Assembly: GCA_052327205.1 (NCBI GenBank) | Contig: CM126224.1 | Location: 28,706,001-28,770,000 of the forward strand | From: Somniosus microcephalus | Lineage: Eukaryota | Length of the DNA: 64,000 nt | Direction of reading: 5' to 3' | Shown here: piece after piece, positions 2,521 to 60,350 of the stretch | How positions within the stretch are numbered: position 1 is the first letter of the stretch | Layout: each line of letters starts with the position of its first letter | The notes under the pieces: model-generated | The model's database searches: none | What the model was told of the DNA's origin: nothing | The model's input: the letters and a program-made list of their open reading frames with translations, nothing else | Translations under genes and position numbers: made by a program

Positions 2521-3201
2521 AACTAAAATTAGAAATGTTTAAAAACATAGGGAGCCTGAATTTGCAGTCGGAGGCATCCCGTGGGCGAATGCCTCCGAAC
2601 CGTAAGAAAAGTATGAACCTACCTGATGGTCCCGTACCTACGAAGACTCATGCTCCTGGGCCTCCAGGCGTAGGCCTGCGTAGAGGCCCATGGATCCCAG
2701 GGGTACATGCGTTTCGCAAGCGCCCCCGGGACCACGTGGGCCGGCCCAACCAATCAGAAAGGGGGATCCCAATTATGCTCATACGGAATTCCCATAAGCT
2801 TAATAGGAATCACATAAAAAGCACAAATTTCACACAACTCAAATAAAAAGAAATCATTACATAGTCAAAATTAATTAAAATACAATGTAATTAAACATTT
2901 AAAACAAAAAATAATTTGTTGAAAAATCAACGTAAACATTTTTGAAGGGTCCAAAAATAACCTAAGCTAATTTTAAAGGTTTTTTTAAGTTTAAATGATT
3001 AAAAAAAATTTTTTTATTTTAATATTTATTTCAACCCTTACGCTGGTAAAAGAAGGCCCTATGCCTGCTTTTACCGGGCATAAGATTTTTTGGGGCATTC
3101 GCTGGGCAGTAGTCGCGCAAACAGCCCAACTCTCCATCAGCGAATGTCCATTTCCTGGGGATGCGGTGGATCTGTCAAGCTGACACTTGACAGATCGCAA
3201 G

Positions 3202-3458
3202 TGTTAAGTATGTGTATTGTATTGAACAATTAACACAAAGACTTAAACGTATAACTCAAACAGGTCTTTACTGGTTGGAGGTAGGGACTGCACGTAGGTC
3301 TTTACTTCATGCCCACAGGCGGGAACTGAGGGGAGATCAGTACCCACAGTACTATTTATACCCCTATGGCCAGGAGTGGTACTGCGTATCACTACGCCCT
3401 ACAAGTAGTGCAGTCCTGTCCATAGGTTCAAAGTAGCACACATATTACATACACAACA
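3202..3458 (-). repeat. 3' LTR (257 bp)
   Basis: Direct repeat of 6523-6779; the only difference I see is C3402 vs T6723; TGTT...AACA termini. Confidence 0.97.
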
Positions 3459-3471
3459 TTCCTCCCTTCTT
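3459..3471 (-). promoter_or_regulatory. Polypurine tract AAGAAGGGAGGAA
   Basis: 13 purines on the - strand directly abutting the 3' LTR. Confidence 0.9.
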
Positions 3472-3569
3472 AGCTTTACAGTCATCTCCCCATTTAACAT
3501 AACGTAATAACATATATACATATATGACTTCAGGTTTACATAACAGAATAACATAGATAACTTCATGTC

Positions 3570-3766
3570 AAAACAGATCACAGATTCAGTCTCTGCGGAA
3601 AACAGTTCACAGATTCAATCTCTGTGGTGTAGTCGGTTCACGTTGCTGGAGTGACTCATTCAATAGTCCTTCCATGGATTTAACAGTTTGAACTTCCGAA
3701 CTGAATTGGCTCCTTTCGGAGGGACCACGTGTGTGATCTGGTAGAGGTAATAATGGTTCAGATGGG
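3570..3766 (-). pseudogene. Vestigial integrase C-terminal tail of pol (…REPTTPQRLNL*), last 29 bp tandemly duplicated
   Basis: Pro/Ser-rich stretch ending PQRLNL-stop just before the PPT, resembling Mag-type pol ends; out of frame with the main ORF; duplicate units at 3570-3598 and 3599-3627. Confidence 0.6.
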
Positions 3767-5959
3767 TCATCTTCTGTTTCGACTTTTCCTTTTCTGCTTC
3801 TTGGAGACTTTCTGGGCTCCACTGTCAGCTGCCTGCTGCATGCGCAGTTCCTCCTTCTCTTCCTCCTTTTTCCGTAGTAGAGCCACCTTCTCCCGATGTT
3901 CCGTAGACTTTCGGTGCTCCTCCATGATTTCTGTATGGTGGGAGTCGAAGTTACAAGTTGGGCAGGACAGGACATAGTAATATTCGGTGTCGTCCTGATC
4001 TAGGCCAGCGAGAGGGTCTTCTATTTCCTCCATACCCAGCTGGGCGTTAGCCAGCTTTTGTTCCAAGTCCAGACATCTTTCCTGAAGAGACTTCTTCATG
4101 CGTACCTCTTCATCCAGCTTTTTCTGGGCTTTCAGCAAGTCGTTTACTAATGACCTCATTTGAGATTTTACTACTTCAACTTCTTTTGGAGATTGATTGA
4201 TCGGACTATTCAATCCCTCTACTGGAGCAGCTGTTTCAGCGGTCTGTTGTTCTACGTTGACGTGAGTCAGCGTACTTTTGGCATCCAAGGGCTGCTCTGT
4301 TGCAGTCATCTCAGTCTGTGTTGCCACCTCAGCTCTTCCAATAACCTTTGAGAGCTCCGAACCCCTTTCGTTTGAATATTGAAGTTCGTGTTCAAGTTTT
4401 TCCCATTTCAGAGTCCTGTCCTTCAGCATATGCAGGAGTTGGCTGACCGTTAACTCCTCTGACATCAGACGTTTTGTGTGCTCCTGCTCCATTTTCTCCA
4501 TCAGCTGCTTCTGTTGTCTTTCCAGATTCTCCAACTCTATATCAAAGAACTCTTTCGTCGCATTCAACTCTTGCTCAAAACGGCGAAGCATTTGTTCTAA
4601 TTGCTGTTGTAGTTTGAAATGGAGTTGAGTTCGAGCCCGGTGTCCCTCAGAAATGGGCACATCAGTAGACTTGCCAGACTCAGAATCCACAGTTAAACTA
4701 TGTTGTTGTTGCTCAGTGGAATTCTGTGCTGAAACTTTGTCTTTTGCACCTGAGTTGGGCTTACCATCATCCGTTCCAGAGTCTGGGCCGACTATCTTCA
4801 CCGAGTTCTCACTCGTTATTGTTTGTAGGAAATGCCAGTCCATATTCATTTTCCTAATCCACTCCCGTCCTAGTAGTGGAGGACCTCCTTCAGATATCAC
4901 ATATAAGTCCATTATTTGACTGTCTTCGCCCTTGTGGACCACTGCAACCTCTATTTTCCCGATGGGGTACACTCTTTGCCCCGTGTATGTTTTCAATATA
5001 ATCCCCGTATCCTGTAGGGGAATATGTTGGAATAACTTTCCGTAATCTTTCTTATTTATGACCGTCAATGCCGATCCAGTGTCCAATTCCAGTTTTACTT
5101 GGACTCCTTCTATCTGAAGAGTGACCCAAATTGTCTGGAGGTCTGCACCCTTACCAGCGTTGAGTACTCTTAAGCTAGCCAGTTCATTACTGCTAGCGTC
5201 TGAATCGGACTCCTGTTCGGTCACCTTGTGTACCTTTGCGTATTTTCCTTGCGGTGACTTCTTGTTGCTGGTCTTCTTCCCTGACCTGCATACTCTAGCT
5301 ATATGTCCAAGCCTACCACAAGTTCTACATTCTTGGTTTTTAAACCAACACTGGTTCTGATCATGCGTTGTCTTTCCACAACGATAACATTTGCCAGAAC
5401 TCACACCCAATTTGTGTGCACTGAGCTCCGGTGACCGTAGCTGCATTACTGCCGTGCCTCTCGCTGCGGCTTCGTGTGCTGCTGCCATAGTGACCGCCTT
5501 CTCAAGCGTCAGCTCATTCTCCTCGAGCAGTCGCTTTTGTGTATCCTGTTTAAATAAACCACACACAAATTTGTCTCGAAGTGCCTCTGTCAGTCCCGTT
5601 CCAAACTGGCAATATTTCGCTAATTTACGCAATTCCAGCAAATATTCAGCATTGCTTTCATGCTGTAGCTGCCTTCTGTCGTAAAATTTAAATCGTTCCG
5701 CTAGCATCAGCGGCGTGGGGTTTAGATGATCTTTCAGGACAGTAACAATCTCATCGAACGTCTTATCCGCCGGTTCATCTGGTGATAACAGGTGTTTCAA
5801 TTGCCCGTATGTCTTCGCACCCATTAAATTTAATAATGTTAGAGCTTTATCTTGGTCACGAATTTTATTGGCCTTACAATAATTTTTTACTCTTTCAACA
5901 TATATGGCCCAATCTTCGAGGTCACTATCAAAGGTGCTAATATTCCCGTGTTTAGGCAT
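3767..5959 (-). CDS. 730-aa chimeric polyprotein: Gag (2x CCHC) - aspartic protease - linker - STK10/SLK-like coiled coil - OPTN-like coiled coil - DNAJC21-like C2H2 zinc finger and basic tail
   Basis: Uninterrupted ORF. Mag-type Gag N-terminus (DWAIYVERV...[11 protein letters not shown]), knuckles [14 protein letters not shown] and [14 protein letters not shown] (aa191-224), protease LDTGS...LLGREWI (aa292-368). C-terminal half matches remembered host proteins (see findings). Confidence 0.93.
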
Positions 5960-6511
5960 TGTAGATTTGCAATTTCTCAGATTTTATTTTCTTTACTTGT
6001 TATCAAAGATGGCGGCTTCCCGCTCTTGCCGTCGTCCTCCGCCCACAAAATGGCGGTTTTCCCGCGCTTGGCGGTCTTCACCCGTCCCCCGACGCCGTCT
6101 CCCTTCAGCCCCCGAGTGCGGCCCTTATCTTCGCCGCGATCGATAGCCCGCGCTGTGCACCGCGGCTCTCGCACCTTGAGCTTCTGCAGCCGCCGCGCCT
6201 TTCAGTCCGAATGCGGCCCTTATCTTTGGTCCCGATCGCTGGCCCGCGCTGCGCCTCGCACTTGAAGCGGCTCCCGGCCTCTGGCTCACCCGCTCGCGCG
6301 GCTCTTGCTCGCTCCCTCCCGGGCTCTGGCTTACCCACGAGGTTATGGAGGCTTCAGGGTCCTAATGCCTGTCGCTTCCAGTCGCTGGAAGCTGTCAGGA
6401 TTTCTGCTGCCCTTCAGTTTTGAGTGGGGTGTTGAGGATTGAAACCTCTCTTCAACGTCCTGTCTTTGGACGAAGCCGCCGTGGAATAACTGCCGCAGGG
6501 TAAGAACCTGA

Positions 6512-6521
6512 CTCGTCGCCA
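6512..6521 (-). promoter_or_regulatory. Primer-binding site TGGCGACGAG, complementary to the 3' end of tRNA-Ser(GCU)
   Basis: One nt inside the 5' LTR; vertebrate tRNA-Ser(GCT) ends CTCGTCGCCA. Confidence 0.85.
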
Positions 6522-6522
6522 G

Positions 6523-6779
6523 TGTTAAGTATGTGTATTGTATTGAACAATTAACACAAAGACTTAAACGTATAACTCAAACAGGTCTTTACTGGTTGGA
6601 GGTAGGGACTGCACGTAGGTCTTTACTTCATGCCCACAGGCGGGAACTGAGGGGAGATCAGTACCCACAGTACTATTTATACCCCTATGGCCAGGAGTGG
6701 TACTGCGTATCACTACGCCCTATAAGTAGTGCAGTCCTGTCCATAGGTTCAAAGTAGCACACATATTACATACACAACA
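6523..6779 (-). repeat. 5' LTR (257 bp) with TATA box (TATAAATA at 6681-6674) and AGTAAA poly(A)-like signals
   Basis: Direct repeat of 3202-3458; motifs read on the - strand. Confidence 0.97.
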
Positions 6780-7439
6780 GCAAGTTCCAGGTGTTCACGC
6801 GTGCGCATCGCGTGCGGAAATCTGGGACTTGCGGGGCATTTACGGCCAGCATACACGGTGCGCACACGGTCATAGGCCCCGGAAAATCAGGGCCAGGGTG
6901 TGTCCATGTTTGATCCAGAATTTAAAACTCTCTTCAGAGAAACTAATGCAGTAATAGAAAGTATCTCAAAATAAATGTGCAACTTCTTGCAAGGTGCAAA
7001 ATATATAACTTTTTATTTTTTAATTGGTGTATAGTTTATCAATGTGTAATGGTTTAAAGTCAATTAAATTATTGGAAGTATGCCGCCTTGCTTGTTTGAT
7101 CTACAGATGAAAATCACTATGAAATATTCTGTAAACCCTATGTACTCAATTTTTAACGCACCATCTTCAATCAATACTCTTTTGAGGCTAAGCAATTACA
7201 GAAGTTAACCATTAATGAATTGATAGTCTTGTTTCGTTGCCACGTTTGCAGAATTTAATGTCACTATTCAATTTCTTCACACCAGTGCTAATTTGAACTC
7301 AAAACAAGACCTTTGATTTTATCCTCTGAAACCTTTGCAATTAAATGGTGACTTGCTGCTCGTGGACTTCTCCACTATATTTCAGTTATTAGATGACTGA
7401 GAAAAATATTAAATTGGCTATCTTTTCCTCAAAATTAGA

Positions 7440-58309: not shown

Positions 58310-60350
58310 ATAAGTACATAAGAAGGAGCAGGAATAGGCCACTTGGCCCCTCGAGCCTGCTCCGCCATTCAATAAGATCATGGCTGATCTTGGGCTCAAA
58401 GCCAGTTCTCTGCCCGCTCCCCATAACTCTTCAGTCCCTTATCTTGCAAAAATCTGTCTATATCCACCTTAAATGTATTTAATGACCCAGCCTCCACGGC
58501 TTTTTGGGGCAGAGAATTCCACAGATTTGCGACCCTCATCTCAGTTCTAAAAGGGCGACCCTTTATTCTAAAACTGTGCCCCCGCATTCTAAATTTCCCC
58601 ACGAGGAGAAACATCCTCTCTGCATCTACCTTGTCGAGCCCCCTCAGTATCTTATATGTTTCAATAAGATCACCTCTCATTCTTCTGAATTTCAATGAGT
58701 ATAGGCCCAACCTGCTCAACCTTTCTTCATAAGTCAACTCCCTTATCTCAGGAATCAACCGAGTGAATCGTATCTGAACTGCCTCCAATGCAAGTATATC
58801 CTTCCTTAAATAAGGAGACCAAAACTGTATGCAGTACTCCAGGTGTGGTCTCACCAATACCCTATACAGTTGTAGCAGGACTTCCCTGCTTTTATACTCC
58901 AACCCCCTTGCAATAAAGGCCAACATTCCATTTGCCTTTTTGATTACTTGCTGTACCTGCATGCTAACTTTGTGTTTCATGCACAAGGACCCCCAGGTCC
59001 CTCTGAACTGTAGCATTTTGTAATCTCTCTCCATTTAAATAATTTGCTTTTTTATTTTTCCTGACAAAGTGGATAACCTCGCACTTTCCTACATTATACT
59101 CCATCTGCCAAATGTTTACCCACTCATTAGCCTATCTATATCCCTTTGCAGATTTTTTGAGTCCTCTGCACAACTTGCTTTCCCACCCATCTTTGTATCA
59201 TCTGCAAAATTGGCTACATTACACTCAGTCCCTTCATCCAAGTCATTAATGTAGATTGTAAATAGTTGAGGCTCCAGCACCAATCCCTGTGGCACCCCAC
59301 TAGTTACAGTTTGCCAACCGGAAAATGACCCATTTATCCCGACTCTGCTTTCTGTTAGTTAGCCAATTCTCTATCCATGCTGATATATTTCCCCCAACTC
59401 CGTGAGCTCTTCTCTTATGCAGTAACCTTTTATGTAGCACCTTATTGAATGCCTTCTGGAAATCCAAATACACCACATCCACTGGTTCACCTTTGTCCAC
59501 CCTGCTCGTTACCTCCTCAAAGAACTGCAGCAAGTTTGTTAAACATGATTTCCCTTTCATAAAACCATGCTGACTCTCCTTGACTGCATTATGATTTTCC
59601 AAATGCCTTGCTACTGCTTGCTTAATGAAGGACTCCAGCATTTTCTCAACAACCGATGTTCGGCTAACTGGTCTATAGTTTCCTGCTTTCTGTCTCCCTC
59701 CTTTCTTAAATAGGGGTGTTACATTTGCGGTTTTCCAATCTGCTGGGACCTCTCCAGGGTCCAGGGAATTTTGGTATATTGCAACCAATGCATCCACTAT
59801 CTCTGCAGCCACTTCTTTCAAGACCCTGGGATGCAGGCCATCTGGTCGAGGGGACTTGTCATCTTTTAGTCCCATTGTTTTACCAAGTACTATTTCCTTA
59901 GTGATGGCGATTTGTCTTTAGTTCCCCCCTCCCTGTGGCCCCTTGATTATCCATTATTGGGATGTTGTTAGTGTCTTCTACCGTGAAGACAGATACAAAA
60001 TATTTGTTCAGAGTCTCTGCTATTTCTCCGTCCCCTATTATTAATTCCCCATTCTCATCCTCTAAGGGACCAACATTTACTTTAGCTACTCTCTTCCTTT
60101 TCATATACCTGTAGAAGCTCTTACTTTCTGTTTTAATATTTCTTGCCAGTTTACTCTTATAATTCATCTCTTTTTAGTCATCCTTTGCTGGTTTTTAAAA
60201 ATTTCCCAATCCTCTGACCTCCCACCAATCTTGGCAACATTGTATGCCTTTGTTTTCAATTTGATACCATCCTTTACTTCCTTAGTTAGCCACGGATAGT
60301 GCTCCCTTCTCTTAAAATTTTTCTTTCTCACTAGAATATATTTTTGTTGA
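58310..60350 (-). mobile_element. 5'-truncated CR1 LINE with frameshifted ORF2
   Basis: ORF pieces 60164-60358, 59898-60167, 59300-59875 and 58396-59034 with CR1 RT motifs; CR1 3' tail at ~58310-58395. Confidence 0.95.

What the first reader, a model, noticed from the sequence alone, without database searches (positions are those of the whole stretch)
4040..4462. Captured optineurin central coiled coil with a TQT (LC8-type) motif
aa500-640 begin [10 protein letters not shown] ([13 protein letters not shown]), contain AEVATQTE (OPTN: SEIETQTE) and [43 protein letters not shown] (OPTN: [43 protein letters not shown]). The LIR, TBK1-binding, UBAN and ZF parts are absent. OPTN is an autophagy receptor and innate-immunity adaptor, so a truncated piece on a retroelement could act as a decoy (speculation). 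VATQTE (4327-4310) fits the dynein light chain LC8-binding TQT consensus that several viruses use.
Basis: partly seen in the sequence, partly recalled or inferred. Interest (0 to 1): 0.75.

Follow-up and report, generated by a model that had tools for sequence, protein, structure and literature searches.

The report
Shark retrotransposon carrying optineurin mRNA piece
A jumping gene with at least 3,900 copies in a shark genome carries a spliced middle piece of the host's optineurin message fused to its own capsid protein; the predicted dynein-light-chain site in it came along from the host gene, and the piece is likely kept mainly as readable filler rather than as an immune decoy.

Summary
The capture is real. 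Window 4023-4474 (minus strand) is spliced optineurin (OPTN) mRNA: parts of four host exons, three exact junctions, 72% identical to sawshark OPTN 226-384. It sits in frame in a young Gag-protease LTR element that lacks RT and integrase; its diagnostic junction occurs 3,907 times.

The founder took one turn of a back-spliced STK10 circle; OPTN 131-428, with its LIR, overwrote part of it (861 copies); this class then deleted the LIR. Sister classes without OPTN also spread (884 copies).

TQT is inherited, not virus-like convergence: 10 of 13 shark and ray OPTNs have it, and human SEIETQTE is already a predicted, unverified LC8 site in two papers' supplements. It is intact in 86 of 88 copies, but no more than other 8-codon windows.

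The frame is strongly kept (6 of 6 shared indels in frame). Amino-acid constraint on the OPTN piece is weak (omega 0.54, CI 0.30-0.98; gag about 0.14).

Verdict: likely passenger cargo; an LC8-clamped Gag tail is possible (0.2); a decoy is unlikely. LC8 binding was not tested. The scan reported this family three times before, on other DNA.

The parts
6523..6779 (-). 5' LTR, 257 nt, TG...CA
   Evidence: 1 mismatch to the 3' LTR
3202..3458 (-). 3' LTR
3197..3201 (.). 5-bp target-site duplication (second copy 6780-6784)
   Evidence: 27 of 30 best-scoring copies have a 5-bp TSD
6512..6521 (-). primer-binding site, one base from the LTR; same 10-mer in classes A, B and C (tRNA-Ser assignment recalled, not tested)
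3459..3471 (-). polypurine tract
3767..5959 (-). single 730-aa ORF: Gag, protease, host-derived cargo; no RT, RNase H or integrase
5240..5959 (-). Gag with two CCHC knuckles (aa188-225)
   Evidence: zf-CCHC E 0.003, below cut-off; omega 0.12-0.15 against classes A-C
4841..5125 (-). aspartyl protease (LDTG)
   Evidence: below cut-off here; above cut-off in sister classes; omega 0.23-0.26
4644..4814 (-). two scraps of host STK10 exon 9
   Evidence: 86-88% to host
4467..4648 (-). host STK10 exon 11 and part of exon 12 (PKK coiled coil), spliced
   Evidence: PKK E 2.5e-8, above cut-off; shark STK10 84%; 91-94% to host exons
4023..4474 (-). spliced OPTN piece (sawshark aa226-384), three exon junctions near 4365, 4194 and 4077; predicted helix-disorder-helix
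4455..4484 (-). STK10 exon 12 to OPTN junction that removed the LIR, with short shared sequence; defines this class
   Evidence: 3,907 exact genome matches, 0 for the reversed control
4310..4327 (-). VATQTE, predicted LC8 site inherited from host OPTN
4016..4033 (-). OPTN to STK10 exon 8 junction (8 shared bases) and 18-nt exon 8 scrap
3776..4015 (-). insert of unknown origin: acidic patch, C2H2-like (matrin/U1-type) finger, basic end
   Evidence: searches give weak leads only; no source among loci held
3655..3775 (-). STK10 exon 8/9 remnant, out of frame, around and after the stop; keeps the permuted exon order of the circle

Best explanation
The stretch is a spliced OPTN mRNA piece inside a non-autonomous LTR retrotransposon, likely picked up by template switching during reverse transcription, and likely kept mostly because the element needs an unbroken reading frame from Gag to near its 3' end. 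Shown: the element, its copies, the exon junctions, the short shared sequences at the joins, the intermediate classes, in-frame indels and transcription. Inferred order: (1) RT, RNase H and integrase were replaced by one turn of an STK10 exon 8-12 circle (class A). (2) OPTN 131-428 overwrote part of it (class B); a titin-like Ig stretch did so independently (class C). (3) Further deletions removed the LIR and the distal coil, and the cargo moved onto another Gag-protease backbone (class D, this window). Inferred: RT and integrase come in trans from a helper that I did not find. Inferred: an early stop would leave a long 3' UTR and cost RNA stability or translation-linked packaging. The weak constraint on the helical pieces would reflect tolerance of the fusion by Gag rather than an OPTN-specific job. 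TQT rides along and probably can bind LC8.
For: Cargo is interchangeable: A carries STK10 only, B OPTN with LIR, C titin-like Ig domains, D OPTN without LIR, and all spread, with 884 (A+C), 861 (B) and 3,907 (D) exact junction matches. All 6 indels shared among 60 D copies inside the coding span are multiples of three, about 1 in 700 by chance; frameshifts are private. 45 of 55 fully covered copies are open. Omega is near 1 for STK10 exon 9 (1.19 in D, 0.93 in B) and for the same OPTN segment in B (1.2), against 0.12-0.15 for gag. The TQT window is invariant in 59 of 59 copies, but so are 23 of 139 OPTN windows. A TQI variant stands at two independent insertion sites, and 3 of 12 B copies lack TQT. 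Joins show 4-9 shared bases, as Tan et al. describe.
Against: The OPTN piece in D has omega 0.54 (CI 0.30-0.98; one-sided p 0.015, uncorrected, 1 of 9 regions tested). Among shared D variants it looks as constrained as gag (N:S 7:9 vs 9:10) while STK10 (19:5) and the tail (10:3) look free, though these counts are linked haplotype blocks and overlap the other test. PKK is also below 1 (0.57 in D, 0.34 in B). Two separate deletions trimmed OPTN on both sides yet spared helix-TQT-helix. D is the largest class. Nothing here tests RNA decay, and I did not test whether cargo-free Gag-protease copies exist.
Confidence: 0.58

Rival explanations
1. The OPTN helix-TQT-helix module was co-opted as a dimerisation tail on Gag-protease: LC8 would clamp two chains, helping protease dimerisation, particle entry or transport, and giving class D its lead.
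For: Omega 0.54 in D; TQT intact in 86 of 88 copies; the 8 motif codons have no amino-acid change while neighbours changed (E541G, T542R, K551M, I552T, A554T). The motif fits each position preference of PMC6607443. Helices flank a disordered stretch. D has about 4.5 times the exact matches of B.
Against: The motif is inherited. Its invariance is matched by 17% of OPTN windows. OPTN-free classes spread. D also has another Gag-protease and LTR, which could explain its numbers. The AlphaFold model runs helix 1 through the TQT at low confidence, while LC8 needs an extended strand.
Confidence: 0.2
2. The benefit is at the RNA level: host-like sequence shields the element from small-RNA silencing, or the copies disturb host OPTN and STK10 through small RNAs.
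For: The idea is described for plant elements (PMC13317346, passages). The family is abundantly transcribed, and run X24 shows much opposite-strand signal. A and B are 96-100% identical to host exons, apart from one exon with a 21-nt deletion.
Against: The most numerous class has drifted to 81-94% from the host. This reading alone does not explain in-frame indels. No small-RNA data were seen.
Confidence: 0.12
3. One reading: a truncated OPTN acts as a decoy or dominant negative against host autophagy or TBK1 signalling.
For: Real OPTN coil, open frame, sense RNA, weak constraint. It could pair with host OPTN through the coil (inference).
Against: No LIR, TBK1-binding, UBAN or zinc finger. The class with the LIR is smaller, and its LIR region varies in 4 of 12 copies. 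The piece is buried in a Gag fusion. 22 amino-acid changes on the D branch, among them L519W and V533G in helix 1.
Confidence: 0.07
4. The permuted STK10 exons come from a genomic tandem duplication or exon repetition in a linear mRNA, not from a circle (rival to the founding step only).
For: Non-colinear junctions can have other sources (PMC4897178). No circular RNA was observed directly.
Against: The 140 kb of host locus fetched has each exon once. The join uses the exon 12 donor and the exon 8 acceptor exactly. The captured stretch equals the rotated 1,245-nt circle at 1,249 of 1,259 bases and ends 14 nt past its start.
Confidence: 0.08

Closest known systems
LTR-mediated retrocopies in metazoans (Tan et al. 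2016, PMC5131818; 12 passages seen)
   Same: Partial spliced mRNA replaces internal ORFs between LTRs; microsimilarity at joins; several parent genes; sense transcription; further rounds as non-autonomous elements; often in frame.
   Different: The passages seen describe a few to tens of cases per species. Here one lineage reached thousands of copies, keeps an active-looking Gag-protease fused in frame, and its intermediate stages coexist.
Maize Bs1 (as described in review PMC13317346, passages; the primary paper PMC2899935 was not held)
   Same: LTR element carrying pieces of three host genes in one chimeric, transcribed ORF.
   Different: Vertebrate host, a circular-RNA founder, serial overwriting and several Gag-protease backbones. 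Translation is reported for Bs1 but was not tested here.
circRNA-derived pseudogenes, e.g. 33 mouse circRFWD2 copies near LTRs (Dong et al. 2016, PMC4897178; part 1 of 2 read, whole main text)
   Same: Reversed-order exon junction at true splice sites, multiplied in an LTR context.
   Different: Here one full turn plus 14 nt, in frame with Gag-protease, 884 exact junction copies. That paper calls the mechanism unknown. The window's own class has lost the junction and keeps only the permuted order.
Human OPTN SEIETQTE, predicted LC8 site (PMC5746249 supplement file 9; PMC6607443 supplement file 2; one row each seen)
   Same: Same aligned motif; TQT anchor with E at +2.
   Different: Prediction only (LC8Hub 0, Mentha 0, no DYNLL1/2 interaction listed). 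Here it is displayed on a retroelement fusion.
Acutely transforming, replication-defective retroviruses with gag-onc fusions (recalled, no call)
   Same: Spliced host sequence fused to Gag in place of pol; helper-dependent.
   Different: No env seen, germ-line spread, and no sign of a selected signalling activity.

Membership tests
Non-autonomous LTR retrotransposon | Two LTRs TG...CA, TSD, PBS, PPT | tested here: met
Non-autonomous LTR retrotransposon | No RT/RNase H/integrase, yet many dispersed young copies | tested here: met
   median LTR identity 99.6% in 52 of 60 copies with a measurable pair
Non-autonomous LTR retrotransposon | Autonomous helper sharing LTR ends, PBS and PPT | not tested
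   Searches are swamped by the non-autonomous copies; no helper identified
Ty3/Gypsy (Mag-like, name recalled) | RT phylogeny and RT-RH-IN order | not testable with these tools
   The element has no RT or IN; Gag with two CCHC knuckles, protease and 5-bp TSD are only consistent
LTR-mediated retrocopy (Tan 2016) | Intronless host exons replacing internal ORFs | tested here: met
LTR-mediated retrocopy (Tan 2016) | Microsimilarity at switch points | tested here: met
   4-9 shared bases at 6 of 6 deletion or capture joins for which both donors are held; no chance simulation was run; joins to the parent pol and to the tail insert could not be checked
LTR-mediated retrocopy (Tan 2016) | Sense co-transcription with the element | tested here: met
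   Family level only: X23 about 20:1 one strand, read as sense if the library is of the usual type; X24 weak bias; runs labelled organism B
circRNA-derived retrocopy (Dong 2016) | Downstream donor joined to upstream acceptor | tested here: met
   Classes A and C; the window's class keeps only the permuted order
circRNA-derived retrocopy (Dong 2016) | The circular RNA exists in the host | not testable with these tools
   Element transcripts carry the same junction at about 99% identity
LC8 client motif | TQT anchor with permissive flanks (polar -4, large -3, non-aromatic -2, D/E/P +2) | tested here: met
   E, V, A, T, Q, T, E against passages of PMC6607443; LC8Pred itself not run
LC8 client motif | Disordered setting next to a coiled coil | tested here: inconclusive
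   Motif sits at the low-confidence end of helix 1 (block pLDDT 54), disorder follows
LC8 client motif | Measured or modelled binding | not tested
OPTN decoy / autophagy-receptor mimic | Carries LIR, UBAN or TBK1-binding site | tested here: not met
   LIR present only in class B

The most novel reading that the evidence does not exclude
A vertebrate retrotransposon built a new module from host RNAs: after a circular-RNA founder and serial overwriting, selection trimmed OPTN down to a coil plus its LC8 site, which now clamps Gag-protease dimers and made this the dominant class. It would also be the first functional sign that OPTN's predicted LC8 site is real.
Probability: 0.18. Interest if true: 0.85.

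Novelty: new variant of a known kind. Interest (0 to 1): 0.6.

Why it matters
The family is an unusually complete natural record of how LTR elements capture, overwrite and trim host RNAs, including a circular RNA whose route back into genomes was called unknown in PMC4897178. Thousands of copies allow a direct test of what selection keeps in captured cargo: frame, protein or RNA. About 4,800 exact-junction copies (classes B and D) carry OPTN sequence and the family is transcribed, which may affect the host gene and will confound OPTN and STK10 annotation and expression counts in this lineage. The TQT points to a conserved, predicted but unverified OPTN-LC8 link that is easy to test.

Tried and rejected
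PDB sequence search of the cargo: 0 hits.

Pairwise dN/dS used a wrong splice donor, because the assembled host exon 6 has an extra base. Its OPTN values were dropped and redone exon by exon; its gag and protease values do not involve the host and stand.

A Fisher test of fixed cargo changes against single-copy changes was not significant (p 0.55; p 0.70). Codon-position bias was not significant either (16:22:27, p 0.25). The untranslated STK10 remnant changed at 13 of 109 sites against 0.08 at cargo positions 1+2: suggestive, small.

Tail origin: two weak hits among 1.84 billion representatives, C2H2-type leads at 0.93 with low recognition, no source among loci held. A region fetched as host stk10 on C26 was another element copy.

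No RNA holder was listed by the index itself; the RNA runs came by species label.

Paper searches: nothing on this family among the papers listed for LTR retrotransposon+captured+host gene+shark (8 of 10 listed) or optineurin+retrotransposon+transduction+gag (13 of 13), titles and abstract starts only. Optineurin+LC8+TQT gave 0; OPTN+DYNLL1+LC8+motif gave 3 reviews, listing only; some searches gave the precedents cited or nothing. The library lacks most subscription journals, and bioRxiv supplements are closed.

Full report
THE ELEMENT. Window 3202-6779 (minus strand) is an LTR element with 257-nt LTRs differing at one base, a 5-bp target duplication, a primer-binding site and a polypurine tract. 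Its one ORF of 730 aa holds Gag with two CCHC knuckles and an aspartyl protease (both below the Pfam cut-off here; protease above it in sister classes), then cargo. There is no RT or integrase. A DNA search of the own genome returned 30 full-length copies at 97-99% from 36 of 3,123 candidates scored, and 27 of those 30 have a 5-bp TSD. The 30-nt junction specific to this class matches exactly 3,907 times, with 0 for the reversed control. That the host is a shark is inferred from the best hits.

All 22 proteins passing the threshold among 527 candidates are OPTN. Residues 496-646 match sawshark OPTN 226-384 at 72%. The host optn gene lies on G000:C17, and the element carries parts of four of its exons joined without introns at 81-92% identity, so the source was spliced RNA. 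LIR, TBK1-binding, UBAN and zinc finger are outside the piece; the TBK1-binding family occurs only in two host genes.

HISTORY IN THE SAME GENOME. A search with OPTN found intronless pieces of about 300 aa in ORFs near 1,000 aa (71 of 23,777 candidates scored). With these sort into classes. Exon numbers are counted from the tblastn series; exon 1 lay outside the region fetched.

Class A: Gag-protease plus STK10 exons in the order mid-9, 10, 11, 12, 8, 9, at 98-100% to the host gene on C8. Exon 12 ends at its donor and joins exon 8 at its acceptor. The five exons sum to 1,245 nt, have no stop in frame through two turns, and copy L088 equals the rotated circle at 1,249 of 1,259 bases, one turn plus 14 nt. 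I infer capture of a back-spliced circle; a reverse transcriptase that destroys its template would have to leave after one turn (inference).

Class B: part of STK10 deleted and OPTN 131-428 inserted, LIR included, six exons at 96-99% except one with a 21-nt deletion. Class C: the same STK10 deletion with titin-like Ig domains instead (the donor gene was not located). Class D, the window: it shares B's STK10 deletion and the 21-nt OPTN deletion, so it descends from B (inference), and adds deletions that removed the LIR and the distal coil, plus a 240-nt insert of unknown origin. Six joins with both donors in hand show 4-9 shared bases. Exact junction counts are 884 for A+C, 861 for B and 3,907 for D; these are floors.

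D's gag differs from A-C at dS 0.85-1.1 and its protease at 0.5-0.57, but its cargo differs from the host at dS about 0.2. Stem lengths are 0.29 for gag-protease and 0.07 for PKK, and copy L152 has a third backbone (midpoint-drawn, no formal test). The cargo therefore likely moved between backbones.

EXPRESSION. Two raw RNA runs labelled organism B, which may be a relative rather than this species, gave 15,584 of 16.65 million and 14,541 of 14.40 million records on the element at 92% likeness, with almost no depth outside the LTRs. X23 is about 20:1 on the strand that means sense in usual stranded libraries; X24 is only weakly biased. Reads pool all copies and some class B. Organisms A-D hold 0.47-0.81 of the words in their best runs. 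Translation is not shown.

SELECTION. I fetched 60 further D copies, the first 65 places listed less 5 already held, all on C1. All 6 shared indels inside the coding span are multiples of three (+24, +9, +30, net -18, -39, -3); frameshifts are private; 45 of 55 fully covered copies are open.

Amino-acid constraint is much weaker. With a spectrum-adjusted expectation over 88 copies (L152 dropped for its other backbone, L006 as a probable duplicate of L008), omega is 0.54 for OPTN (N 32.5, S 21.5; CI 0.30-0.98; one-sided p 0.015, uncorrected among 9 regions), 0.57 for PKK and 1.19 for STK10 exon 9. In 12 B copies it is 1.2 for the same OPTN segment, 0.64 for the LIR part and 0.34 for PKK. Restricted to the D branch it is 0.61 (p 0.08). 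Tests against single-copy changes are not significant. Gag is 0.12-0.15. Host-branch changes are included in the counts and bias them slightly down.

THE TQT. It is intact in 27 of 30 best copies, 59 of 59 of the further sample and 86 of 88 pooled. A TQI variant with a second shared change stands at two distinct insertion sites, so it spread at least once without TQT in cis. Three of 12 B copies lack it. An invariant 8-codon window is not rare: 23 of 139 in OPTN. The motif is the host's: 10 of 13 chondrichthyan OPTNs have TQT and the eel has SQT. Human SEIETQTE is listed as a predicted, unverified LC8 site in supplements of PMC5746249 and PMC6607443. The flanks suit LC8 by the passages of PMC6607443, which also warn that many anchors do not bind. 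The model is helix 2-59, disorder 59-91, helix 96-144 (mean pLDDT 75, pTM 0.32), with TQT at the uncertain end of helix 1.

READING. Most likely (0.58) the OPTN piece is passenger cargo in a frame that must stay open, with mild constraint on helical parts. An LC8-clamped dimerisation tail (0.2) is the live rival, RNA-level camouflage or interference is possible (0.12), and a decoy is unlikely (0.07), because the adaptor sites are absent and the class that lost the LIR is the larger.

KNOWN AND NEW. The process is known: LTR-mediated retroposition (PMC5131818, passages), Bs1 (PMC13317346, passages) and circRNA-derived pseudogenes (PMC4897178, main text). The scale, the in-frame Gag fusion, the single-turn circle and the surviving intermediates make a new variant. 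I found no paper on this family, by listings only. The scan itself reported the family three times on other DNA, after I had reached the same reading; none of its findings holds the LC8/TQT words. Interest 0.6, carried by the family history more than by the TQT.

Noticed in passing
L070:9346-9539 (G000:C17, host optn, the exon holding TQT): The assembled host exon has one extra base that shifts the frame, and two A-to-C differences that spoil TQTE; element copies and other sharks read through. Two of 12 class B copies share one of the changes. Assembly error, gene conversion or a broken allele.
   Followed up: partly
L100-L102, L104, L105: Class C carries about 1 kb of titin/obscurin-like Ig domains in frame inside STK10 exon 8; donor gene not located.
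   Followed up: partly
L100:5437-5906: Extra in-frame insert after the protease with a CPTCN finger and an acidic EYYY patch, resembling motifs in the window's tail; E 0.35 only.
   Followed up: partly
G000:C8:167.19-167.20 Mb (host stk10 exons 8-12): The 1,245-nt circle has no stop in frame through two turns, so it could be translated endlessly.
   Followed up: no
L103:4271-4945: Intronless STK10 C-terminal piece (aa753-977, 97%) beside a LINE-like frame: probably a separate processed retrocopy.
   Followed up: no
L152: Class D cargo and LTR on a third, distant Gag-protease backbone.
   Followed up: partly
L130, L161, L179: Copies that lost Gag-protease but keep cargo and LTRs; the sample was chosen by the cargo junction.
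   Followed up: no
window:4456 and 4466: RNA reads with loose ends here (118-206 per run) point to other upstream partners for the OPTN piece; one fits class B by eye, the other is unidentified.
   Followed up: no
L102:6008-8255: Another LTR element with RNase H and integrase frames is nested inside a class C copy.
   Followed up: no
window:2500-3196 and 6780-7000: The element sits inside an older dispersed repeat (66-75% to stretches of other loci); joints across the element are seen in DNA run X3.
   Followed up: partly
window:48807-49805, 58396-59917: LINE-like (CR1-type, name recalled) RT and endonuclease-region fragments.
   Followed up: no
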